A DNA stretch of 64,000 nucleotides from an uncultured bacterium (GTDB lineage: Bacteria; Zixibacteria; MSB-5A5; UBA10806; 4484-95): the NCBI GenBank assembly GCA_965603725.1, contig CBFDEC010000006.1:5997-69996 (forward strand), written 5' to 3'. Positions 7,757 to 47,758 of this stretch are shown in pieces. How positions within the stretch are numbered: the first letter of the stretch is position 1; each line of letters starts with the position of its first letter. The notes under the pieces were generated by a model. The model ran no database searches and was not told the DNA's origin. It was given only the letters and a program-made list of their open reading frames with translations. Position numbers and translations under genes: made by a program.

Positions 7757-7908
7757 GGACAAAACACTGTTTTGTCCCTACAATGATATTTTTAATAAAT
7801 GTAGGGATAGAACACCGTTCTGTCCATAAACTGGACAAAAGACTGTTTTGCCCCTACAATGATATTGTTAATGAATGTAGGGACAGAACACCGTTCTGTC
7901 CATAAACT
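7757..7908. repeat. Two tandem 76-bp units (~92% identical), each carrying three perfect or near-perfect palindromes
   Basis: Unit 1 is 7757-7832 and unit 2 is 7833-7908. Each unit reads GGACAAAACA-C-TGTTTTGTCC, then CCCTACA-N17-TGTAGGG, then GGACAGAAC-ACC-GTTCTGTCC, then ATAAACT. Read directly from the sequence. Confidence 0.8.
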
Positions 7909-8059
7909 ATTTTATCAACGTCATCTGTTTCGTAAAACTAATCTCACCAGTTCTTGTGCTGTCAAGTCTCCGCACTTGACAGCTATACAGCGTCAGGTAC
8001 GGCAACCTGACGCGACATTAAGCCCAGGCGTTAACAAAACATCTTCATCCATCTTCCCC

Positions 8060-10203: not shown

Positions 10204-11202
10204 ATGAAGTATTTCTTTTGCAGGCTAAGTTGGATGGAATTATATCAAGGTTGTTCTTATGATAAGCCAATATATGGCGGGAAATTCCCAGAGGAAGAAG
10301 GATATTGTTTTGAATCATATAATTTTAAACCTTATAGAAATCATCTTTATGGTTTTGTAAAAAGTCGAAATTATAATTCAAATATATCAATTGAAAATTT
10401 AGGAGCACAAAAAAAGGATAATTCCATTAAAGATATTACTGTTGTTTATTTTGCCACAAAACCAAAAACTGGCGGGCAATATATTATTGGATGGTACAAA
10501 AACGCAACCGTATTCAGGCACTTTCAGAAAAATCTACCAAAGAAAACTGGTAGAATATTTCCTAAATGGAACTCTAATGAAGTAATAGGTTATCATATCA
10601 AGGCATCCATAAAAGATGCTATTTTACTTCCTCCTGAGGAGAGGGTTTTTAAAATCTTACATAAATCTGTTGGAGGACCAGGGATTTCCCAGTTGTGGTA
10701 TTGTAATAAAGGTAATAAAGAACAATTAAAGTTTTTAAAGGATGTTGAATATTACATCAAGTATAGAAAGTTGCCGAAATCTATAATATCAAAAAGAAAA
10801 TCTTCAAAAAAAGTACTCCAAGATTATAAAAAGATAAAGGAAACTGAATTAAAAGCAATGAATATTATTAAAGAGTATTATTATTCGTTGGGATATGTTA
10901 TCGATGATGTAAGTAAAGATAATCTTGGCTATGACTTGGAAGCTTATAATGATAACAATTTATTGTATCTTGAAGTAAAAGGATTATCAAGCAATAACCT
11001 TTTTACTGAATTAACTCCAAACCAATTTCAAACAATGAATGATAATAAGGATAATTATAGGATTTGTATTGCAGCAGATATTTCAACAAAAAAACCAATT
11101 ATTTATATATTCAGATATTCTTATGAGAAAGGTTGCTGGATTGACCAGAATAGTAATAAATTGATTATAAAAAGAAAAACTGGTGCTAAGATATGGATTT
11201 AG
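10204..11202 (+). CDS. Hypothetical protein in an AT-rich island; the C-terminal region is PD-(D/E)xK/DUF3883-like (putative nuclease); N-terminal domain unknown
   Basis: The gene and its upstream spacer look about 30% GC against roughly 45-50% in flanking DNA. The C-terminal segment GYDLEAYNDNNLLYLEVKGLSSNNLFTELTPNQFQTMNDNKDNYRICIA fits the D...ExK core and the DUF3883 (NO VEIN C-terminal) pattern G.D...EVK...f.LT.nQ. It is lysine-rich. Confidence 0.5.
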   Translation: MKYFFCRLSWMELYQGCSYDKPIYGGKFPEEEGYCFESYNFKPYRNHLYGFVKSRNYNSNISIENLGAQKKDNSIKDITVVYFATKPKTGGQYIIGWYKNATVFRHFQKNLPKKTGRIFPKWNSNEVIGYHIKASIKDAILLPPEERVFKILHKSVGGPGISQLWYCNKGNKEQLKFLKDVEYYIKYRKLPKSIISKRKSSKKVLQDYKKIKETELKAMNIIKEYYYSLGYVIDDVSKDNLGYDLEAYNDNNLLYLEVKGLSSNNLFTELTPNQFQTMNDNKDNYRICIAADISTKKPIIYIFRYSYEKGCWIDQNSNKLIIKRKTGAKIWI

Positions 11203-12382: not shown

Positions 12383-13933
12383 ATGGATTTAGAAGCAAAA
12401 TTAAAGATGCTGGAGAACATGCGTAAAGCCGCTAAACTTGGCGGCGGCCAGAAAAGAATCGACAGCCAGCATAAAAAGAATAAGCTGACCGCTCGGGAAC
12501 GGATAGATTTTCTCCTTGATGACAATTCATTTGAGGAGTTCGATATGTTCGTCACCCATCGCACAAAAGATTTTGGGCTTGAAAAGGAAAAATATTTCAG
12601 TGATGGCGTTATTACAGGTTATGGTACAATCAATGGACGTCTCGTGTTTGTTTTCAGCCAGGATTTCACCGTTTTCGGCGGCACCTTGTCGGAGGCGTTT
12701 GCCGAAAAAGTCTGCAAGATAATGGATATGGCCGCCAAGGTAGGCGCGCCGGTTATCGGGCTTAACGATTCCGGCGGCGCCCGTATTCAGGAAGGCGTAG
12801 TATCGCTGGGCGGCTATGCTGATATATTTTTAAGAAACACAGTTGTTTCGGGGGTTATACCGCAAATATCGGTAATCCTTGGCCCGTGTGCCGGCGGGGC
12901 TGTTTATTCGCCGGCGATTACAGATTTTACTATAATGGTAAGAGGAACTTCATTCATGTTTGTTACCGGTCCTAACGTAGTCAAGACCGTTACTCATGAG
13001 GATGTAACGCTGGATGAACTTGGCGGAGCAGATATTCATGCCTCAAAATCCGGTGTGGCTCATTTCGCCTGTGAAAATGAGATAGAGGCGCTGCAGATTA
13101 CCCGTAAACTGTACAGTTACATGCCTATGAATAATATGGAAGATCCACCGGTAATTGAATGTACCGATCCTATTGAAAGAACTGATCCTGATTTGAATAT
13201 GATCGTGCCGGAAAATCCCAATAAACCTTATGACATGAAAGATGTGATTACAAAAGTTATCGATGATGGCGACTTTCTGGAGGTCCACACCGATTACGCT
13301 ATGAACATCATTGTCGGTTTCGCCCGCCTGGGTGGCCAACCTGTCGGAATTATTGCCAATCAACCGGCTCATTTGGCAGGTGTGCTTGATATCGACAGTT
13401 CAAATAAAGGTGCCCGGTTTGTTCGGTTCTGCGATTGTTTTAACATACCGCTTGTTACATTTGAGGATGTTCCCGGATTTCTGCCCGGAACCGCCCAGGA
13501 ACACGGCGGCATTATCAAACATGGCGCCAAGCTATTATATGCCTACTGCGAGGCCACAGTGCCGAAGCTCACGGTAATTACACGCAAGGCATACGGCGGC
13601 GCTTATGATGTTATGTCCTCCAAGCATATTCGCGGCGACATAAACTATGCCTGGCCTACCGCTGAGATTGCGGTTATGGGGCCCAAGGGAGCGGCTGAGA
13701 TAATTTTCAAAAAGGAGATATTAAAAGCCGATGATTCGGAGGCATATCTTAAGCAGAAAGAGGAAGAATACCGCGAACTTTTCGCCTCACCGTTTAAAGC
13801 GGCCGAACGCGGTTATATTGATGATATTATTATGCCTGAAAGCACCCGGCCGCGTCTTATAAAAGCCCTGCGTATGCTGGATACCAAAAGGGACACCAAC
13901 CCACCGAAGAAGCACGGGAATATACCGCTGTAG
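12383..13933 (+). CDS. Acyl-CoA carboxylase carboxyltransferase subunit (propionyl-CoA carboxylase beta / methylmalonyl-CoA decarboxylase alpha family)
   Basis: Typical N-terminus ([52 protein letters not shown]). Paired carboxyltransferase N and C domains. Length 516 aa. Confidence 0.9.
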
Positions 13934-13957
13934 GGTCAGTATAGAGCTAAAGATATT

Positions 13958-13985
13958 TGCAGTCAGAAGTAACTTCTGACTGCAC
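13958..13985. repeat. REP palindrome TGCAGTCAGAAGT-A-ACTTCTGACTGCA (orientation TAA)
   Basis: Perfect 13-bp arms. Belongs to the CAGAAGT(A/T)ACTTCTG family seen five or more times in 13958-15215. Confidence 0.75.
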
Positions 13986-14002
13986 AGAAGAATAAATTAT
14001 TT

Positions 14003-14458
14003 ATGGCATTGTTGAGTATGACTAAGGATAGATATTTAAATTTATTGATTGAATACGGATATATTTATGATAATGATTTCTATAATTGGGTGTTAATAGC
14101 AAATTTAGTATTTGTGATATTTTTTGGATTGATGGGTTACTGGGTATTGGAAAATATCATAGGGTTTATCGCAGGGGTTGGCTTAAGTTTTATATTATGG
14201 CGAAGTGTAAATAAAAAAATATGGTGGTTACGTAAAGAATACTATGTGCCATTTTTATATTCCTACAGATTTACCCAATTTGATAATATTGATATTGATT
14301 TACTGGGGAAGTTTATGCGTGGCCTTTATATGAAAGTAGAGAAAGTGAGCGCCCAAGAAGTTAAGAGCATAATTGAGCAAGGAAATAATGATTCTTCTAT
14401 TCCTTATAATTATGTAAAGAATATCGCAAATAAATATGAAACAAAATATGCTTTATAA
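14003..14458 (+). CDS. Hypothetical small membrane protein (151 aa), AT-rich, bounded by REPs
   Basis: Two predicted TM helices and no recognisable domain. It lies between REP 13958-13985 and REP 14488-14509, which are in opposite orientations. Confidence 0.4.
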   Translation: MALLSMTKDRYLNLLIEYGYIYDNDFYNWVLIANLVFVIFFGLMGYWVLENIIGFIAGVGLSFILWRSVNKKIWWLRKEYYVPFLYSYRFTQFDNIDIDLLGKFMRGLYMKVEKVSAQEVKSIIEQGNNDSSIPYNYVKNIANKYETKYAL

Positions 14459-14487
14459 ATTCTCTGTTTTGTGTCCCAACCTTAAGC

Positions 14488-14509
14488 GGCGCCAGAAGTT
14501 ACTTCTGGC
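14488..14509. repeat. REP palindrome GGCGCCAGAAGT-T-ACTTCTGGC (orientation TTA)
   Basis: Same core as the other REPs; the outer arms differ (GCGCC versus TGCAGT). Confidence 0.75.
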
Positions 14510-14534
14510 TGAACAAGCAGAAATAATTTACAGT

Positions 14535-14559
14535 GGTGTCAGAAGTTACTTCTGACACC
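14535..14559. repeat. REP palindrome GGTGTCAGAAGT-T-ACTTCTGACACC
   Basis: Perfect palindrome, 24 nt upstream of the RAYT start codon. Confidence 0.75.
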
Positions 14560-14582
14560 TGCTAATAAAACATATATTGTAA

Positions 14583-15095
14583 ATGGGAAGACGATACCGA
14601 CAAAATGTTAAAGGTGGATGTTATTTCGTTACGACATCTGTAGCGGGTTTTATTAAAGTTTTCGATGATCCACATTGCTCCAAAATTGTCATAGATTCAT
14701 TGCATTACTGCAAGCAAAAATTTAATTTTACGTTGGATGCTTACGTAATCATGCCTGATCATCTTCATTTAATCCTGACTATAGAAGAAAATTCTAAAAT
14801 TTCAAATATTATGAGAGATTTTAAAAAATATACTTCGGTGGCAGTCAAACGATATTTGTTAGAAGGAAATAATGATAAAATATATTTTCAGTTACTTAAA
14901 CAAGTACCCAGCAGACCTGAAAGATCGTTTAAACTATGGCTGGATAGATTTGATGATGTTGCCATATATTCAGAAAAGGTATACTTGACAAAGTTACAGT
15001 ACATTATTAACAACCCAATAAAAGCTGGTCTTGTTGCGAAACCTGAGGATTGGCAATATCTATATTATGAATCGATGAATTGCAGTCAGAAGTAA
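14583..15095 (+). CDS. REP-associated tyrosine transposase (RAYT / TnpA_REP, IS200-like Y1 HuH family)
   Basis: HuH motif VIMPDHLHLILT. C-terminal block KLQYIINNPIKAGLVAKPEDWQY typical of Y1 transposases and RAYTs. 170 aa. Flanked on both sides by REP palindromes, one of which overlaps its stop codon. Confidence 0.8.
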   Translation: MGRRYRQNVKGGCYFVTTSVAGFIKVFDDPHCSKIVIDSLHYCKQKFNFTLDAYVIMPDHLHLILTIEENSKISNIMRDFKKYTSVAVKRYLLEGNNDKIYFQLLKQVPSRPERSFKLWLDRFDDVAIYSEKVYLTKLQYIINNPIKAGLVAKPEDWQYLYYESMNCSQK

Positions 15096-15108
15096 CTTCT
15101 GACCGCAC
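15081..15108. repeat. REP palindrome TGCAGTCAGAAGT-A-ACTTCTGACCGCA overlapping the RAYT stop codon
   Basis: The core TAA of the palindrome is the RAYT stop codon (..CSQK*). Confidence 0.75.
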
Positions 15109-15140
15109 AAGGATTCTGACTGCACCAGAAGGTTTTAGGT

Positions 15141-15164
15141 GGCGCCAGAAGTTACTTCTGGCGC
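15141..15164. repeat. REP palindrome GGCGCCAGAAGT-T-ACTTCTGGCGC, with half-REP remnants at 15111-15126 and 15201-15215
   Basis: Perfect palindrome. The flanking fragments CTGACTGCACCAGAAG and ATGCTTCTGACTGTA look like degraded copies. Confidence 0.7.
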
Positions 15165-15322
15165 TAAAAGGGAATATGCAGCAGGCAGACCAGGAACTCA
15201 ATGCTTCTGACTGTATAGGAACAAGGACTAATTTCCACCGCATTGAAAGATTTTTTTATTGCCTATTAAATATTTTGTTATATATTTATACTGAGAAGCA
15301 AAAAACGTTGTGAGGTGTATAA

Positions 15323-15796
15323 ATGCAGTTAACTGAGTTTGTGGAGAGAGCTAATAAATCTTTGGATAACTTAATGCAAACGATTGAAGATATACCCCCC
15401 GGAGATATGGTCATCCCTGAGTCGATAGGCAAATGGTCGGTGAAGGATGTTCTCAATCATATCATTGTCTGGGAGGAAGAAGCGGCCAAGGCGTTTGAAA
15501 TATGGAAAATCGGTATCGAGCCCGACTGGCTGCATATAACCGATCTTGATGAATTTAATAATTCCACAGTAGAAAAACAAAGGAGGACGCCTCTATCGAA
15601 AATCATAGATCAACTTCAACTTGTGCATAACGGCGTAATCGAAAACATAAAATCGGTGGCTGATAGTGAGTATAACAGTCGGGGAGGTATTCCCGGGTGG
15701 TTGGAGACTTTACTTACCACGCATATTGATGATCACACAGATAGAATAAAAGCTTTTGAACGCTCCTTACAAGAAGTCAAAAAAAGCTCAGCCTGA
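15323..15796 (+). CDS. DinB_2/DfsB/ClbS-like (DUF1706) four-helix-bundle family protein
   Basis: WSVKDVLNHIIVWEEEA followed by HxxDH (HIDDHTDRI) resembles DUF1706/DinB_2 signatures. 157 aa. Called by recollection, not by search. Confidence 0.45.
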   Translation: MQLTEFVERANKSLDNLMQTIEDIPPGDMVIPESIGKWSVKDVLNHIIVWEEEAAKAFEIWKIGIEPDWLHITDLDEFNNSTVEKQRRTPLSKIIDQLQLVHNGVIENIKSVADSEYNSRGGIPGWLETLLTTHIDDHTDRIKAFERSLQEVKKSSA

Positions 15797-16188
15797 ACGA
15801 TGCTTTTACTTGTTTTTTAAAAGCGACAGGAATGAAAGCTGATTGAAACCGGATTTATTGTCAGGATGATACTGAAGCGCTCAACGCCGACCGAGCTGTT
15901 TATTTAGGCAAGCAGGCAGAGATTTGGCTGATTTTGAAAGATACCAGTCAGCAGTACTGAATAAATTACACGATTGTTGCTTCATGGAGTTTTAGTCACT
16001 ATCTGTTATAGAAACCAATTCTGAAATGGTAGTCTGGTTTTAATCATGGCAGAGGATATTTTCTGCCATTCAAATTTGTTGTTTACAATATCCTTACAAA
16101 TGTATAAATTGCTCAAGTGGTTTAACGCTGAGGGGCTTATGGGTAATATGATTGCAGTTTATAAAAAGGGAAATTGAAATAAGGGAAG

Positions 16189-17679
16189 ATGTTTAAAAAG
16201 ATACTCGTTGCCAACAGGGGAGAGATAGCGGTCCGAATAATCAGGGCTTGCCGTGATATCGGAGTAAAGTCTGTGGCTATTTTTTCTGATGCCGACAAAT
16301 TTGCTCAGCATGTGCGTCTGGCTGACGAGGCTTATAATGCAGGACCGCCGCTTTCAGCTCAATCATACCTTGATATTAAAAAGATAATTGATATCGCCTG
16401 TGAATCGAAGGCCGAAGCTATCCATCCTGGTTATGGGTTTTTAGCGGAAAATCCTGTTTTTGCCATTGAAACGGCAAAAGCCAGCCTGGAATTTATTGGA
16501 CCTACACCCAAAGCCATTAAAATGATGGGCGATAAGATGGCGGCGCGTAAAACCATGATAAAATCCGGCGTGCCCATTGTTCCCGGGACTGAATCACCGG
16601 TTGAGAGTGAAAAAGAATCATTAAAAATAGCCCGCGATATCGGTTTCCCGATTCTTGTTAAAGCGGCGGCTGGCGGCGGCGGCAAGGGGATGCGTATCGT
16701 AAACAGCGCCAATGAGCTGAAGTCGGCCTTGCGTGGAGCGGCCAGCGAGGCTAAAACCGCATTTGGCGATGACCGGATTTATATCGAGAAATATCTGGCT
16801 CAACCGCGACATATTGAAATACAGGTAATAGCTGATAAACATGGCAATTATGTCTATCTCGGCGAGCGTGAATGTTCAATCCAACGCCGTCATCAAAAGG
16901 TAATAGAGGAGGCGCCCAGCCCTGTAGTGGATAGCGCTCTCAGGGAAAAGATGGGAAAAGCGGCCATGGCGGCGGCTAAAGCCTGCAATTATACTAATGC
17001 CGGAACAGTAGAATTTTTGGTTGATGCAGACATGAAATTTTATTTTCTGGAAATGAATACCCGACTCCAGGTGGAACATCCGGTAACCGAAATGATTACC
17101 GGCCGCGATTTAGCCGTTGAGCAGATCAGAATCGCCGCCAACGAGAAACTGTCTTTCAATCAGCAGGATATTTCTATAAGCGGCCATTCCATAGAATGCC
17201 GGATTTATGCCGAGGATCCGGTCGATTTTCTTCCGGCTACCGGTATCATACATCATTACAGGGAACCGGCAGGACCGGGGGTACGAGTTGATTCAGGCGT
17301 TTATGAGGGAGCCGAAATATCTGTCTATTACGATCCTCTTATAGCCAAGCTTATCACTCATGGTGAAAACAGAAAACAGGCAATCGCCCGGATGAGACGC
17401 GCCCTTGATGAATATCTTATCACTGGAGTTACTACAAATATCAGTTTTCATAAAAAGATACTCGATCATCCGGCGTTTTTAGAAGGTAAGCTTTCAACTC
17501 ATTTTATTGACGAATACTATGACCGGCTGGATGAATTATCCGACGAGCAGCGCCTGGCAATTGCAGTAGTCGCGGCCCTGGATAACCATCGACGCAATAA
17601 TTTGTCTGTTTCATTTAAAAAAAGCGCTAATAATAACTGGAAACAAAGCGCCCGACCTGGAAATATAAGCAGTCTATGA
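16189..17679 (+). CDS. accC: Biotin carboxylase subunit of acyl-CoA carboxylase
   Basis: MFKKILVANRGEIAVRIIRACRDIGVKSVAIFSDAD...; ATP-grasp glycine loop GGGGKGMR; 496 aa. Confidence 0.92.
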   Translation: MFKKILVANRGEIAVRIIRACRDIGVKSVAIFSDADKFAQHVRLADEAYNAGPPLSAQSYLDIKKIIDIACESKAEAIHPGYGFLAENPVFAIETAKASLEFIGPTPKAIKMMGDKMAARKTMIKSGVPIVPGTESPVESEKESLKIARDIGFPILVKAAAGGGGKGMRIVNSANELKSALRGAASEAKTAFGDDRIYIEKYLAQPRHIEIQVIADKHGNYVYLGERECSIQRRHQKVIEEAPSPVVDSALREKMGKAAMAAAKACNYTNAGTVEFLVDADMKFYFLEMNTRLQVEHPVTEMITGRDLAVEQIRIAANEKLSFNQQDISISGHSIECRIYAEDPVDFLPATGIIHHYREPAGPGVRVDSGVYEGAEISVYYDPLIAKLITHGENRKQAIARMRRALDEYLITGVTTNISFHKKILDHPAFLEGKLSTHFIDEYYDRLDELSDEQRLAIAVVAALDNHRRNNLSVSFKKSANNNWKQSARPGNISSL

Positions 17680-27975: not shown

Positions 27976-28264
27976 CCTTTTTTAAGGTTATCTGAGCAAG
28001 CCCCGACCGTCAAGCCATAATGTGTTGTCGACCCTCTGAGGTCGACACAATGGCCATGATTAGTCTCTTTTCCAAGTTGTCCGAGTAGTAAAATCAGAAA
28101 TTATGTATAATGCTGTATTAAATAAAAACCAATTTATCCGATATTCTAAAAAGTTGATAAAATACTTGACAATTTGGATAAATCTTTTAAATTTATCAAC
28201 TTGTGATAAATGGGCTAGACCCTTTTATTAGTTTGATAATAGTAATTAGAGATAAGGAGAATCG

Positions 28265-45221: not shown

Positions 45222-45824
45222 ATGGGTGTTGTTGATGTAGCAGCAAGAGAACCCAAAGCAAAAAAAGGCGGTAAACTAAAACGCCCGAAAAGGCGTACCG
45301 GCATCCGTATCGATATGACTCCCATGGTGGATATTGCTTTCCTGTTGCTGATATTTTATATGGTCACTACGGTGTTTTCGATGCCCCAATCGATGGAGAT
45401 CAATTTGCCTCCTAAACCGAAAGAGGGTGAAGCGCCGCCGATTCCTATTGCTAAATCAAGGCTCATGGAAATACTTGTTGATTCCCAGGGTAATATTTTT
45501 TGGATGCATACTCCTAAAGGGCAGGACGATATGAAAATGCCTGAATATATCGAACTAAACAGGTTGCGGAATTTCCTCATCAAGAAAAATCAGGATGTTG
45601 CCAAGCTTGTTACCGTGTTGCGTATTGACCCGGAATGTCGATATGAATCAATGGTGAGTATCATTGATGAGATCCAGGTAGTTGAGAGGTTGTTCAAACA
45701 GGCAGATCCTGCGTGGTCTTACAGGTTCAGTCTTCAGGATATGACCCAGTGGGAATTTCAGCTGATGGAACAAGCAAAAGAGGCAATGGGCATGGTTGCT
45801 CCTGCAGAGGAGGAAACGTTATGA
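45222..45824 (+). CDS. exbD: ExbD/TolR biopolymer transport protein (second copy)
   Basis: IDMTPMVDIAFLLLIFYMVTT. 200 aa. Confidence 0.85.
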   Translation: MGVVDVAAREPKAKKGGKLKRPKRRTGIRIDMTPMVDIAFLLLIFYMVTTVFSMPQSMEINLPPKPKEGEAPPIPIAKSRLMEILVDSQGNIFWMHTPKGQDDMKMPEYIELNRLRNFLIKKNQDVAKLVTVLRIDPECRYESMVSIIDEIQVVERLFKQADPAWSYRFSLQDMTQWEFQLMEQAKEAMGMVAPAEEETL

Positions 45825-46561
45825 ACAAAGCATTATCCCTATTGGCAGGTTATGGGGCTTTTGAGCTTAAGCGAGCCTATCGTAAGAACATGTTTATAGG
45901 CATGGTTGCAGCCAGCGCCTTGCATCTTGTGATAATTGGCAGTATCGTTTTAATCAACTATCTTTCGTCAAAACCGCCGGAGGCGGTTGGAACGATTGTT
46001 TTGAAGACAACTGCCGACTTGGGCGCTCCGCCGACATTATCGGCCAAGGATATTCCGATCAGAGTGGCCGCTCCAGAACGAGCGCAGCCATCCGTTGGTG
46101 TGCCAACGCCTGTACCAGATGAGGAGGCGCCTGAAGAGGTCGAGATGGCAACTATGGATGACCTCGCCGCCATGGCAGCGCCGCCGCCTATTATGGACCT
46201 GGATGATGCTGGCGATAAGGATATCATTATTGAGGACTTAGGGGATTTATTGCCGTCTCCTGATGAATTTATTGCCTATGAGGAAGAGCCCACACAGATT
46301 GTAGCAGTTCGGCCCGATTATCCCGAAATGGCTCGACGGGCTCAGATTGAAGGCAGCGTCTGGGTTAAGGCGCTGATTGATAAAAAGGGCAAGGTTCGGG
46401 ATGTGATTATTCTTAAGGATTCCGGCGCCAATGCGGGCTTTGAGGAAGCCGCTATTAATGCGGCAATGAAAACCGAATGGAAACCGGCTATCTCAAATGG
46501 CCAGCCTGTGGCTGTTTGGGTCTCTTATAAAATTGTTTTCGTTTTGACTTCAGGCAAATAA
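45821..46561 (+). CDS. tonB: TonB-family energy transducer
   Basis: ATGA overlap with the exbD stop. TM anchor, Pro/Ala-rich spacer, and a C-terminal TonB domain (YPEMARRAQIEGSVWVKALIDKKGKVRDVIILKDSG...). The ORF-track start 45713 was rejected. Confidence 0.8.
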   Translation: MNKALSLLAGYGAFELKRAYRKNMFIGMVAASALHLVIIGSIVLINYLSSKPPEAVGTIVLKTTADLGAPPTLSAKDIPIRVAAPERAQPSVGVPTPVPDEEAPEEVEMATMDDLAAMAAPPPIMDLDDAGDKDIIIEDLGDLLPSPDEFIAYEEEPTQIVAVRPDYPEMARRAQIEGSVWVKALIDKKGKVRDVIILKDSGANAGFEEAAINAAMKTEWKPAISNGQPVAVWVSYKIVFVLTSGK

Positions 46562-46611: not shown

Positions 46612-46728
46612 TGGCTTAGGGGAATAAACCTGCATCTGCAATCGTAATCTCTACAGAACTGATTAACTTTTCATTTTGTTGATAGCCCGCATTATTCGCA
46701 AATCTTAACATGTGCTTCTTCTGCCAGA

Positions 46729-46755
46729 GTTGTCGGAAGTAACTTCCGACAGCAC
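46729..46755. repeat. REP-like palindrome variant GTTGTCGGAAGT-A-ACTTCCGACAGCA
   Basis: Same architecture as the 13958-15215 REPs, with CGGAAG replacing CAGAAG in both arms, which is a compensatory change. Confidence 0.6.
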
Positions 46756-46990
46756 AAAATATTTAAAGGTGATTGAAAAACCCCAATATGGCTATAAGAA
46801 CAATCGATTCTTTTAGCTAAAAATCGGCATAATTCTGTTGCATCAGTTGATATATTATAATAAAATTAGTGCGATGTTATGGTTATTTAACTTGTTATAA
46901 TAATATTTTTGAATATTTTATTATTGAAAGTGTATACAATTTTAAAAGTTGATGTTTTGAAACAATTTTAATGAATTTGCGTTACACTAA

Positions 46991-47758
46991 ATGTCAATGA
47001 AGAAAGGATGTTTTATGGAAGACCAGGTACAAAATCAGGTTATTGAAACAGAACAGGGCCCAGAGCTCGGTTTCTGGAGCAAGTTCGGAAATATCATTGC
47101 CAACCCGCGCATAGCGTTTGAATCATTAGACAAACGGCCAACCTGGTTGATGCCGATGGTGATATTAGTTGCTATTACTGTTGCTACAACTTATTACATG
47201 TTTCCGGTTATTATTGAAAAGCAATTGGAAACGTTTAGAAGCAATCCCGACATATCTGCCGAGCAGCTGCAGCTTATAGAAAATCAGTTGTCTGAAAACA
47301 TAGACACACAGATGTATCTTGCATTGGCGGCACAGATAATCATGACGCCATTAGTGTTTTATATCCTATTGTCATTTATATTTTATTTTGTGGGCTCGGT
47401 TATTCTTGGGGGTGATGCAACTTTCAAGAAAGTTCTCGCAATATTTTCATGGTCAACATGTATCTTGATTATTTCAACTTTCATAAGTTTCCCACTGGCG
47501 ATTGCGAAAGGAACTATTGGCGTTTCTTTATCTCCAGCCCTCTTATTGTCCAATGAGTTGATAGGGACAACGGTTCATACTTTACTGTCGAAATTTGACT
47601 TTTTCATGATCTGGTTTTTGGCAGTTTTCGCCTTCGGTTTTTCTGTCATCTACAGGTTTAGTATAGCCAAATCTTATATAGCTATAGGCATACTCTGGGG
47701 GATATGGATAGCGATATCTACAGTATTTGCCAATGTTTTTAGTCGATTTGGGATGTAA
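46991..47758 (+). CDS. Yip1-domain family membrane protein
   Basis: Soluble N-terminus then 5 TM helices in a Yip1-like pattern. The start may be M at 47015. Confidence 0.45.
   Translation: MSMKKGCFMEDQVQNQVIETEQGPELGFWSKFGNIIANPRIAFESLDKRPTWLMPMVILVAITVATTYYMFPVIIEKQLETFRSNPDISAEQLQLIENQLSENIDTQMYLALAAQIIMTPLVFYILLSFIFYFVGSVILGGDATFKKVLAIFSWSTCILIISTFISFPLAIAKGTIGVSLSPALLLSNELIGTTVHTLLSKFDFFMIWFLAVFAFGFSVIYRFSIAKSYIAIGILWGIWIAISTVFANVFSRFGM

What the first reader, a model, noticed from the sequence alone, without database searches (positions are those of the whole stretch)
13958..15215. REP/RAYT island (REPtron) inserted within a methylmalonyl-CoA pathway neighbourhood
There are at least five perfect palindromes of the form xxCAGAAGT(A/T)ACTTCTGxx at 13958, 14488, 14535, 15081 and 15141, plus degraded halves, with outer arms that vary (TGCAGT.., GGCGC.., GGTGT..). 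They surround a 170-aa IS200-like Y1 HuH transposase gene (HLHLIL motif, NPIKAGLV..DWQY tail). The central A/T asymmetry shows that REPs on either side of the gene are in opposite orientations, as described for REP-associated tyrosine transposases. One REP supplies the RAYT stop codon. The whole island, including an AT-rich 151-aa membrane ORF, sits between the carboxyltransferase gene and the DUF1706 gene.
Basis: partly seen in the sequence, partly recalled or inferred. Interest (0 to 1): 0.55.

Follow-up and report, generated by a model that had tools for sequence, protein, structure and literature searches.

The report
REP hairpins around a domesticated transposase
This is a genuine "REPtron": a single-copy, vertically inherited HUH/tyrosine transposase gene (RAYT) flanked by its cognate palindromic REP repeats, in an uncultured Zixibacteria genome; it is a well-known kind of element seen here in a little-studied phylum.

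Summary
Five exact CAGAAGTWACTTCTG palindromes lie at 13964-15160 (none expected by chance), plus two half-copies. The 170-aa ORF between them is a RAYT: it passes the NCBIfam REP_Tyr_transpos cutoff (126 bits against 80), its model best matches E. coli TnpA_REP (4ER8), and H60/H62/Y140 are invariant.

The repeat is not confined to this locus:
- A sixth copy sits at 46.7 kb.
- About 35 extragenic copies occur in sediment metagenome contigs.

A one-sided 5' GTG(G) tag gives each copy an orientation. The RAYT is bracketed tag-outward, as are the dispersed copies, which form inverted two-subtype doublets. Seven RAYT homologues (40-74% identity) show the same layout and keep the GTG..GTCAG foot while the hairpin tip changes.

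The locus is old. The same carboxyltransferase-ORFan-RAYT order occurs in two other lineages, and RAYT dN/dS is below 0.1. A more distant relative has carboxyltransferase fused directly to biotin carboxylase, which marks the empty site.

I rate it a new member of a known kind, of modest interest. One oddity remains: the REP-bounded ORFan is far less diverged between lineages than its flanks, and a third lineage carries an unrelated ORF in that slot. Genome-wide copy number could not be measured.

The parts
13956..13988 (-). REP1. Hairpin 13958-13984 with 13-bp arms, lying 24 nt after the carboxyltransferase stop. The GTG tag faces orf151.
   Evidence: Covariance model R1: 45.2 bits, E 4e-10 on the - strand, against 32.4 bits on +. 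ssDNA fold -12.7 kcal/mol, z -5.4. An orthologous REP is present in L167 and L168.
14003..14458 (+). orf151, an AT-rich ORFan with two hydrophobic segments. It may start at 14018, as in the 146-aa database form. It lies between REP1 and REP2.
   Evidence: No Pfam, NCBIfam, PHROG or PADLOC hit. Only the self cluster and one 85% homologue (the L167 ORF) were found among 5.8e9 proteins and 1.84e9 representatives. dN/dS 0.22 against L167. G+C 28.9%.
14483..14515 (+). REP2, a degenerate copy: 9-bp arms and a GCG tag instead of GTG.
   Evidence: R1 35.8 bits, E 1.5e-7 on +. ssDNA fold -7.6 kcal/mol.
14530..14562 (+). REP3. GTG tag plus 12-bp arms, ending 24 nt upstream of the RAYT start codon. One of REP2/REP3 has no counterpart in L167, a one-unit indel.
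   Evidence: R1 48.7 bits, E 4e-11. Pairwise alignment with L167.
14583..15095 (+). RAYT / TnpA_REP gene, 170 aa. HUH motif at H60/H62, catalytic Tyr at Y140, and N144.
   Evidence: NF047646 126.4 bits (cutoff 80). IS200 NF033573 27 bits (cutoff 55). PF01797 39 bits. AF2 pLDDT 90.8. Foldseek top hit 4er8_A, E 1.9e-10, TM 0.73/0.75. Invariant columns. dN/dS 0.075-0.092. Only copy in the window.
15079..15111 (-). REP4. It overlaps the last four RAYT codons (S-Q-K) and provides the TAA stop at its centre. It is inverted relative to REP3.
   Evidence: R1 44.9 bits on -, against 25.6 bits on +. Sequence read. The same REP-embedded stop occurs in L178. A decayed orthologue occurs in L167.
15113..15127 (-). 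Half-REP: a 3' arm plus tail (ATTCTGACTGCACCA) directly after REP4.
   Evidence: Direct-repeat family D2. Comparable half-copies follow the downstream REP in L168.
15136..15168 (+). REP5. GTG tag plus 11-bp arms. With REP4 it forms a tag-inward pair. Absent from L167.
   Evidence: R1 44.7 bits. Fold -12.3 kcal/mol, z -7.4. Alignment.
15204..15218 (-). Second half-REP (CTTCTGACTGTATAG).
   Evidence: Direct-repeat family D2, 87% to the reference copy.
46726..46758 (-). REP6, a dispersed copy of the CGGAAG subtype in an intergenic gap between two same-strand ORFs. A possible remnant of a partner copy lies just upstream.
   Evidence: R1 44.7 bits, E 5e-10. Sequence. ORFs 45713-46561 and 46991-47758.
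7953..8019 (.). Inverted doublet of a second hairpin type (GTG-CTGTCAAGT..., GCGTCAGGT...). It has the same GTG..GTCAG-type foot but a 6-nt loop, and it resembles the REPs that flank the 49%-identical RAYT of L172.
   Evidence: R1 17.4 and 15.2 bits. Fold -20.3 kcal/mol, z -5.9. Foot-hairpin scan: 9 in the window, 0 in each of 20 shuffles.
13934..16188 (.). Whole block absent from the intact operon of a relative: REP1-orf151-REP2-REP3-RAYT-REP4-REP5, plus the DinB_2/DUF1706 gene (15323-15796) and a spacer. It lies between the carboxyltransferase and biotin carboxylase genes.
   Evidence: In L183, Carboxyl_trans (ends 5551) abuts biotin carboxylase (starts 5551), followed by BCCP and MM_CoA_mutase. 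Window ORFs.

Best explanation
This is a REPtron. A domesticated HUH/Y1 single-strand-DNA endonuclease-transposase (RAYT/TnpA_REP) is encoded at a fixed chromosomal site and is bracketed by copies of the palindromic repeat it acts on.

Each REP is a 9-13-bp perfect hairpin (core CAGAAGT-W-ACTTCTG) preceded on one strand by a conserved GTG(G) tag.

Proposed mechanism, by analogy with E. coli, S. maltophilia and Marinomonas TnpA_REP (PMC3479197, PMC8266576):
1. The RAYT binds the folded REP on single-stranded DNA. It reads the tag and the conserved GTCAG stem foot, and perhaps the loop.
2. It cleaves and rejoins ssDNA next to the hairpin through Y140, with metal held by H60/H62.
3. It thereby copies REP units or inverted doublets (REPIN/BIME-like) in trans into extragenic sites.
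4. The gene itself no longer moves.

Shown here:
- The protein's family, fold and catalytic residues.
- Purifying selection on the gene.
- The inverted REP flanks in eight RAYT loci.
- Dispersal of the repeat.
- The one-sided tag.
- Compensatory stem changes.
- REP-unit indels between lineages.
- An old syntenic locus and an empty site.

Inferred, not shown:
- Binding specificity.
- The cleavage site.
- That this RAYT is what disseminates the REPs.
For: Protein:
- NCBIfam REP_Tyr_transpos 126 bits, above the cutoff of 80. IS200 equivalog 27 bits, below its cutoff of 55.
- phmmer hit to 4er8 across both the HUH and Tyr segments.
- AF2 model with pLDDT 90.8, whose best PDB match is TnpA_REP bound to a REP (TM 0.73-0.75), followed by IS608/ISDra2 TnpA.
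- H60, H62, Y140 and N144 are invariant in 37 homologues.
- dN/dS 0.075-0.092.

Repeats:
- 5 exact copies against 0 expected.
- 6 covariance-model hits at E <= 1.5e-7, each with a clear strand preference.
- Stable ssDNA hairpins, z -2.9 to -7.4.
- 59 distinct REPs from the window, 3 genome loci and about 35 metagenome loci carry GTG at -14..-12 in 55/51/52 of 59 cases. The mirror positions are not conserved.
- The pairs that the search pattern did not force still covary: GC/AU/CG and UA/CG/AU.
- 13 dispersed doublets are all tag-outward. Eleven pair a CAGAAG subtype with a CGGAAG subtype.

Association with the RAYT:
- Homologues at 74, 70, 55, 49, 45, 41 and 40% identity all have a GTG-tagged hairpin 20-65 nt upstream.
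- Six of those seven also have an inverted copy at or just after the stop (none was detected downstream in L180).
- The GTG..G(T/C)CAG foot is kept while the apical stem and loop change.

History:
- The order Lactamase_B - Carboxyl_trans - ORF - RAYT is shared by the window, L167 and L168.
- The empty site is seen in L183.
- One-REP indels separate the window from L167.
- The exact RAYT protein was seen only at this locus, in the two contigs shown of four that carry it, from separate samples.
Against: - No whole genome was available, so the defining high copy number is not demonstrated. The sampled density outside the RAYT locus is low: 3 sites in 62 kb of the window, and about 5 sites in about 130 kb over all RAYT-bearing loci.
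- The invariance of the REP core across loci is partly by construction, because the core was the search pattern.
- No biochemical evidence exists for this clade. The tag is GTG(G), not the GTAG studied experimentally.
- REP4's orthologue in L167 is decaying, so the system may be inactive in some lineages.
Confidence: 0.85

Rival explanations
1. This is an autonomous IS200/IS605-type insertion sequence that recently landed in the methylmalonyl-CoA operon. On this reading the palindromes are its left- and right-end hairpins.
For: - The block interrupts an operon that is intact in L183.
- The RAYT and orf151 are AT-rich relative to their neighbours: 32% and 29% G+C against 47%.
- The fold is shared with IS608/ISDra2 TnpA.
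Against: - The IS200 equivalog score of 27 is below its cutoff of 55, whereas the RAYT equivalog passes.
- The same insertion site is shared by lineages whose RAYTs are only 70-74% identical, with saturated synonymous sites (pS 0.70).
- The flanking hairpins are inverted. IS200/IS605 ends lie on the same strand.
- There is one copy in 64 kb, and the exact protein was seen only at this locus.
- Hairpins occur dispersed without the gene.
- No tnpB is present.
Confidence: 0.04
2. The RAYT is a domesticated nuclease that no longer spreads REPs. On this reading the few REPs are relics or host regulatory hairpins (mRNA 3'-end stabilisers, terminators or protein-binding sites), and the RAYT serves another host function at them.
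For: - The dispersed density is low.
- REP1 sits 24 nt after the carboxyltransferase stop, and REP4 is at the RAYT stop. These are positions typical of mRNA-end hairpins.
- Some copies are decaying: REP2, the L167 orthologue of REP4, and the half-copies.
- RAYTs of groups 1 and 4 have only about 12-14 copies of their flanking 16-mers (PMC5581495).
- E. coli TnpA_REP is auto-inhibited (PMC3479197).
Against: - REP units differ by presence or absence between lineages at the RAYT locus.
- Tag-outward heterodimer doublets of constant architecture occur at many unrelated loci. This points to copying rather than independent origin.
- There is no T-run after the hairpins on the gene strand, and no Rfam family matches.
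Confidence: 0.1
3. The palindromes are unrelated to the ORF and are simply strong intrinsic terminators or an operator array that happens to surround it.
For: A loose terminator scan flags REP1 on the minus strand.
Against: - The same pairing of hairpin and RAYT, in the same inverted layout, recurs in seven other loci. There the hairpin tip co-varies with the protein.
- The conserved one-sided GTG tag is not a terminator feature.
- The relatives sampled without a RAYT had no such hairpins in 28 kb.
Confidence: 0.01

Closest known systems
E. coli K-12 REPtron: TnpA_REP/RAYT (yafM, PDB 4ER8) with REP/BIME sequences (PMC3333891, PMC3479197)
   Same: - A single-copy HUH/Y1 protein of about 165-170 aa with the same fold (TM 0.73-0.75).
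- The gene is flanked by REPs in inverted orientation.
- The REP is a hairpin preceded by a conserved one-sided tag.
- Dispersed copies pair as inverted heterodimers of two subtypes, like the Y/Z REPs in BIMEs.
   Different: - Only 23% identity in the structural alignment.
- The tag is GTG(G), not GTAG.
- The hairpin is a perfect 9-13-bp stem with a minimal loop, not a bulged imperfect palindrome.
- The host is Zixibacteria.
- The density appears far lower than the hundreds of REPs in E. coli.
Group 3 REPtrons with perfect palindromes (S. maltophilia, Marinomonas MWYL1; PMC8266576) and REPIN-RAYT systems of Pseudomonas (PMC3116915)
   Same: - Perfect short palindromes plus a tag.
- Co-evolution of the REP with its RAYT.
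- REP doublets (REPINs) as the dispersed unit.
- Vertical inheritance of the RAYT.
   Different: - Stems here are longer and the core sequence is unrelated.
- The group of this RAYT was not determined.
- The doublet spacer here is short (7-20 nt between hairpins) and variable.
GTAG-tagged REP superfamily, e.g. GTAG-20 (GTGG tag, Opitutus terrae) and GTAG-24 (12-13-bp stems) (PMC3733652)
   Same: - A terminal tag of GT-G type.
- Long stems with very short loops.
- Compensatory sub-families.
- HH heterodimers dominate.
- REPs overlap the 3' end of the RAYT gene ('3'ov').
   Different: - The family and its phylum are not in that catalogue.
- Here the tag partly overlaps the stem foot.
IS200/IS605 insertion sequences (IS608, ISDra2)
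   Same: - The HUH/Y1 fold.
- Recognition of sub-terminal ssDNA hairpins.
   Different: - This protein fails the IS200 profile cutoff.
- The flanking hairpins are inverted.
- The gene is single-copy and syntenic across lineages.
- No TnpB is present.

Membership tests
RAYT / TnpA_REP (REP-associated tyrosine transposase) | Matches the curated RAYT profile above its cutoff and does not qualify as an IS200 TnpA | tested here: met
   NF047646 126.4 bits (cutoff 80). NF033573 27 bits (cutoff 55).
RAYT / TnpA_REP (REP-associated tyrosine transposase) | HUH metal-binding motif and a catalytic tyrosine on a C-terminal helix | tested here: met
   H60-L-H62 and Y140 (with N144) are invariant in 37 homologues. 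They align to the HMH and Y segments of 4er8.
RAYT / TnpA_REP (REP-associated tyrosine transposase) | TnpA_REP-like three-dimensional fold | tested here: met
   AF2 pLDDT 90.8. Foldseek top hit 4er8_A, E 1.9e-10, TM 0.73/0.75, rmsd 2.8.
RAYT / TnpA_REP (REP-associated tyrosine transposase) | Gene flanked by its cognate REPs in inverted orientation | tested here: met
   REP3(+) lies upstream and REP4(-) at the stop. The same layout holds in L167, L168, L172, L176, L178 and L179. L180 shows only the upstream copy.
RAYT / TnpA_REP (REP-associated tyrosine transposase) | Single copy per genome and vertically inherited (housekeeping-like) | tested here: inconclusive
   One copy in 64 kb. Synteny across three lineages, with the RAYT at 70-74% and the neighbouring carboxyltransferase at 87-89% identity. 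No whole genome could be examined.
RAYT / TnpA_REP (REP-associated tyrosine transposase) | Strand-specific binding and cleavage of ssDNA REPs | not testable with these tools
   Needs purified protein and oligonucleotide assays, as in PMC8266576.
RAYT / TnpA_REP (REP-associated tyrosine transposase) | Assignment to one of RAYT groups 1-5 of Bertels et al. 2017 | not tested
   Reference sequences of the groups were not available. 23% identity to the group-2 E. coli protein is below their 26% linkage threshold.
REP / REPIN repeats | Short palindromes able to form a hairpin, with compensatory variation | tested here: met
   Perfect 9-13-bp arms. ssDNA folds of -7.6 to -12.7 kcal/mol. Covariation at the unforced pairs 7-29 and 8-28.
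REP / REPIN repeats | Conserved asymmetric tag at one end (GTAG-type) | tested here: met
   GTG at -14..-12 in 55/51/52 of 59 REPs, and G at -11 in 39 of 59. The tag is therefore a GTGG variant, and the mirror positions are not conserved.
REP / REPIN repeats | High copy number in extragenic space of one genome (tens to hundreds) | tested here: inconclusive
   One canonical copy and two variant sites lie outside the RAYT locus in 64 kb, all intergenic. About 35 loci were found in metagenome contigs of several organisms. No per-genome count was possible.
REP / REPIN repeats | Dispersed unit is an inverted doublet (REPIN/BIME) | tested here: met
   13 tag-outward doublets, 26-50 nt centre to centre, in related contigs. 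In the window only the variant doublet at 7953-8019 is of this form, and REP6 is a singleton.
IS200/IS605 insertion sequence | Multicopy element with same-strand LE/RE hairpins and a TnpA that passes the IS200 profile | tested here: not met
   The profile score is below its cutoff. The hairpins are inverted. The gene is single and syntenic.
Intrinsic terminator | G+C-rich hairpin followed by a T-run on the transcribed strand | tested here: not met
   Only REP1 on the minus strand passes a loose scan. None of the + strand hairpins is followed by a T-run.

The most novel reading that the evidence does not exclude
The slot between the tag-inward REP pair just upstream of the RAYT may be an exchangeable cassette site. 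REPs, through the RAYT or through REP-REP recombination, may capture small AT-rich ORFan genes there and swap them between lineages.

Evidence:
- The REP1-orf151-REP2 block is about 89% identical in DNA between the window and L167, with dS 0.33.
- The genes on either side are saturated at synonymous sites (pS 0.70-0.72, identity 75-78%).
- A third lineage (L168) carries an unrelated 154-aa ORF in the same REP-bounded slot.
Probability: 0.12. Interest if true: 0.6.

Novelty: new member of a known kind. Interest (0 to 1): 0.3.

Why it matters
REP/RAYT systems have been characterised almost entirely in Proteobacteria. No paper in the searchable library links them to Zixibacteria.

- **New clade.** This locus and its homologues document a RAYT clade in Zixibacteria and, by the source records' names for P0016 and P0020, Anaerolineae and Bacteroidota MAGs. 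Its REP architecture is clean, and the comparative series shows which part of the hairpin stays fixed as the protein diverges (the GTG tag plus the GTCAG foot) and which part drifts (the apical stem and loop). That yields a concrete, testable prediction for the recognition determinants of perfect-palindrome REPs, which is the open question addressed in PMC8266576.
- **Dated insertion.** The locus also offers a dated case of a RAYT inserted into, and then inherited with, a core metabolic operon.
- **Practical use.** The R1 model and the GTG-tag rule can flag these repeats in MAGs, where they are likely to break assemblies.

None of this overturns current understanding.

Tried and rejected
1. 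**Genome-contig scan.** I used the 15-mer CAGAAGTWACTTCTG. The pattern was too short. Only L012 (Zixibacteria chromosome CP070813.1) and L043/L077 were real REPs. The only scan of that collection was therefore spent without yielding a per-genome count.
2. **Viral contigs.** One match only, so there is no link to phages.
3. **Rfam over 13000-16200.** No match at E <= 1.
4. **Function of orf151.** No hit in Pfam, NCBIfam, PHROGs or PADLOC. The exhaustive HMMER search found only its 85% orthologue and a 25-residue motif match to Big_12 Ig repeats (P0163). I regard that match as coincidental.
5. **A second RAYT gene.** I looked in the window for one that could explain the second hairpin type at 7953-8019. 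There is none.
6. **Promoter idea.** The CTGACA in the 3' arm of REP3 could act as a -35 box for the RAYT. I rejected this because the only matching -10 ends 3 nt before the ATG.
7. **CGTC-tagged REP superfamily.** I considered it because the metagenome consensus reads GTG-GCGTCAG. I rejected it because in those families CGTC is an unpaired terminal tag and they lack an associated RAYT (PMC3733652). Here CGTC is paired stem sequence.
8. **The hairpin at 28022-28047.** It is GTG-tagged but scores only 10.7 bits with R1, so it stays a doubtful family member.
Full report
**1. Observation**

The pattern CAGAAGTWACTTCTG occurs exactly five times in the 64-kb window, at 13964, 14493, 14540, 15087 and 15146. 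None of 100 dinucleotide-preserving shuffles produced a match.

Extended outward, these are odd palindromes with arms of 13, 9, 12, 9 and 11 bp. The fourth reaches 13 bp with one mismatch. The outer arms differ between copies but stay complementary. Two half-copies (3' arm plus tail) lie at 15113-15127 and 15204-15218.

The ORF 14583-15095 (170 aa) carries MPDHLHLIL and YIINNPIKAGLV. Its TAA stop (15093-15095) is the central GTAAC of the fourth palindrome.

The 151-aa ORF at 14003-14458 has 28.9% G+C, against 42.7% for the window. The flanking genes are a Carboxyl_trans gene and a DinB_2/DUF1706 gene.

It is a variant in which CAGAAG/CTTCTG has become CGGAAG/CTTCCG, a compensatory pair.

**2. 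The protein**

- The ORF scores 126.4 bits on NCBIfam NF047646 (REP-associated tyrosine transposase, equivalog, cutoff 80). It scores only 27 bits on the IS200/IS605 transposase equivalog (cutoff 55). Pfam Y1_Tnp scores 39 bits.
- phmmer against PDB sequences finds E. coli TnpA_REP (4er8) in two segments, which cover the HUH strand and the Tyr helix.
- In an alignment with 36 homologues, M57, H60, H62, K81, W119, Y140 and N144 are invariant.
- An AlphaFold2 model built on that alignment has mean pLDDT 90.8.
- Its best PDB match is 4er8_A, the RAYT bound to a REP hairpin (E 1.9e-10, TM 0.73/0.75, rmsd 2.8). ISDra2, IS608 and IS200 transposases follow at TM about 0.5.
- Against the orthologues in L167 and L168, dN/dS is 0.075 and 0.092 with saturated synonymous sites. 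The gene is therefore under purifying selection.
- It is the only copy in the window.
- The exact protein is on record in four contigs. The two that were shown, from separate samples, both carry it at this same locus.

**3. The repeat family and its polarity**

Because the hairpin is nearly a perfect palindrome, I looked for asymmetry in the flanks.

A metagenome scan with GYCAGAAGTWACTTCTGRC returned 45 stretches. In 35 of them the palindrome extends to 9-13 bp. The other 10 are non-palindromic chance or coding matches.

I pooled these with the window, with the real hits of the genome scan (L012 from Zixibacteria chromosome CP070813.1, and L043/L077), and with the RAYT-homologue loci. That gave 59 distinct REPs.

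When all are oriented with T at the centre, positions -14 to -12 read G, T, G in 55, 51 and 52 of 59. Position -11 is G in 39. The mirror positions +12 to +14 are not conserved. The family therefore has a one-sided 5' GTG(G) tag. This is the counterpart of the GTAG tag of classical REPs, and a GTGG variant is already on record (PMC3733652).

The two stem pairs that the selection did not force (columns 7-29 and 8-28) show GC/AU/CG and UA/CG/AU alternatives.

A covariance model (R1) finds six sites in the window at E <= 1.5e-7. Each has a 13-19-bit strand preference:
- REP2, REP3 and REP5 lie on the + strand.
- REP1, REP4 and REP6 lie on the - strand.

As single-stranded DNA the hairpins fold at -7.6 to -12.7 kcal/mol. 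No Rfam family matches. The hairpins are not followed by T-runs on the gene strand. Viral contigs contain a single match.

**4. Architecture**

On the + strand the order is: REP1(-), orf151, REP2(+), REP3(+), RAYT, REP4(-), half-copy, REP5(+), half-copy.

The RAYT is bracketed tag-outward: GTG-hairpin ... gene ... hairpin-CAC.

The dispersed copies in related contigs have the same geometry. There are 13 doublets from 12 independent loci, and all are tag-outward. Their centres are 26-50 nt apart with variable spacers. Eleven pair one CAGAAG-type REP with one CGGAAG-type REP. In the terms of PMC3733652 these are HH heterodimers, and they parallel the E. coli BIMEs built from Y and Z REPs.

In the window:
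- REP6 is a singleton in an intergenic gap.
- A second, weaker doublet lies at 7953-8019. It has the same GTG..GTCA foot but 6-nt loops.
- A scan for hairpins with a G[TC]C[AG][AG] foot finds nine in the window and none in any of 20 shuffles.

**5. Comparative evidence for a REP-RAYT partnership**

RAYT homologues were found at identities from 74% down to below 30%. I read the context of seven.

- **L167 (74%), L168 (70%) and L178 (55%)** carry the same AAGT-W-ACTT hairpin, upstream in + orientation and inverted at the stop.
  - In L178, as in the window, the TAA stop is the hairpin centre.
  - In L167 the orthologous hairpin has decayed (CAAAAGTAGCTTCTAAC).
- **L172 (49%), L176 (45%), L179 (40%) and L180 (41%)** have hairpins that keep the GTG tag and the G(T/C)GTCAG or GGCAG foot. 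Their apical parts differ: GTC-ctca-GAC, GTC-ttac-GAC, ATG-ttac-CAT and GTG-tttc-CAC. Where a second copy was detected it is again inverted on the other side of the gene.

So the tag and foot are fixed across the clade while the tip co-varies with the protein. My inference is that the tag and foot are the main recognition determinants. This would be consistent with the roles of the tag and lower stem in E. coli, and with the co-evolution reported for other REPtrons (PMC3479197; PMC8266576).

**6. History of the locus**

The order Lactamase_B - Carboxyl_trans - small ORF - RAYT is shared by the window, L167 and L168-L171. The last set includes GCA_021159005.1, which is labelled candidate division Zixibacteria. 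In these lineages the carboxyltransferases are 87-89% identical and the RAYTs 70-74% identical.

A relative with a 76%-identical carboxyltransferase (L183, on an 827-kb contig) has the operon intact. There Carboxyl_trans abuts biotin carboxylase, followed by BCCP and MM_CoA_mutase. Relative to it, window 13934-16188 (REPs, orf151, RAYT, DinB) is an insertion.

Two other relatives (L181, L182) also lack the RAYT. None of the three RAYT-less loci has an R1 hit better than 16 bits in 28 kb.

This is the housekeeping-like behaviour described for RAYTs (PMC5581495).

REP units at the locus turn over between lineages:
- One of REP2/REP3 has no counterpart in L167.
- REP5 and the second half-copy are absent from L167.
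- L167 has an extra, partly deleted REP upstream of REP1.

**7. An unexplained feature**

orf151 has no family assignment. Its only homologue is the 85%-identical ORF of L167.

Its dN/dS of 0.22 suggests a real gene. Its synonymous divergence, however, is only 0.33, whereas the carboxyltransferase and the RAYT on either side are saturated (pS 0.72 and 0.70).

DNA identity rises to 85-95% exactly between REP1 and REP2. It is 75-80% in the flanks.

L168 holds an unrelated 154-aa AT-rich ORF in the same REP-bounded slot.

This pattern fits a cassette that has been exchanged more recently than the flanks diverged. A loose association of TnpA_REP with variable small genes has been reported in picocyanobacteria, though its authors later weakened the claim (bioRxiv 10.1101/2020.03.09.984088).

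**8. What remains open**

Copy number per genome was not measured.

The sampled density is low. Outside the RAYT locus the window has three sites in about 62 kb. Across all RAYT-bearing loci there are about five sites in about 130 kb. Extrapolated, very roughly, to a genome the size of the 3.8-Mb Zixibacteria chromosome CP070813.1, that is of the order of a hundred or more copies. This is well below the densities I recall for E. coli or Pseudomonas. It is not inconsistent with the 12-14 copies of flanking 16-mers reported for RAYT groups 1 and 4.

The RAYT group was not determined.

**9. Verdict**

It is a new member of a known kind: the first such locus I can find described for Zixibacteria, with a GTG(G)-tagged, perfect-stem REP and BIME-like heterodimers. 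It is not a new mechanism. Interest is modest. The cassette observation is the only element that could raise it.

Noticed in passing
window 13958-14470 versus L167 9474-9973: The REP-bounded orfan block is about 89% identical in DNA (dS 0.33). The flanking carboxyltransferase and RAYT are 75-78% identical with saturated synonymous sites. L168 has an unrelated ORF in the same slot.
   Followed up: partly
window 7757-7908: A 76-nt unit is repeated twice in tandem (93% match) in an intergenic region. Each unit holds internal palindromes (CCCTACA...TGTAGGG and GGACAGAAC..GTTCTGTCC). The array lies directly upstream of the variant REP doublet at 7953-8019 and occurs nowhere else in the window.
   Followed up: partly
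window 28022-28047: An intergenic GTG-tagged hairpin (GTGTT GTCGACC ctctga GGTCGAC) sits inside a longer imperfect palindrome. It scores only weakly with the REP model (10.7 bits), so its membership of the family is doubtful.
   Followed up: partly
window 10204-11202: A 332-aa protein with a NOV_C domain gives weak PADLOC hits to the C-termini of TmtA and HmaA (defence-system helicases). It occupies the position where L167 has a UvrD-like helicase.
   Followed up: no
L178 1318-3580: A RAYT 55% identical to the window's sits directly after an MM_CoA_mutase gene. This is the same pathway but a different junction. It has the same REP core, and its TAA stop is again the hairpin centre.
   Followed up: partly
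L036, L041, L054, L065 (Pseudomonas sp. GOM6, NZ_JARPUS010000005.1): The 15-mer CAGAAGTWACTTCTG occurs in four separate 8-kb stretches of one 252-kb contig, with unrelated flanks and no consistent GTG tag. That is too many for chance. It may be a binding-site palindrome unrelated to this REP family.
   Followed up: no
L181 5640-5960: In a RAYT-less relative, the 700-nt gap after the carboxyltransferase gene holds two copies of a direct repeat of roughly 190 nt (…tatcgccgactgataaatttgaata…gtcatcccggacttgatccgggatccagggttgg…). It is a different small repeat at the same junction.
   Followed up: no
window 46700-46730: Just upstream of REP6 the sequence GTGCTTCTTCTGCCAGAG looks like a GTG tag followed by a 3'-arm remnant. 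REP6 may therefore be a doublet whose partner lost its 5' arm.
   Followed up: no
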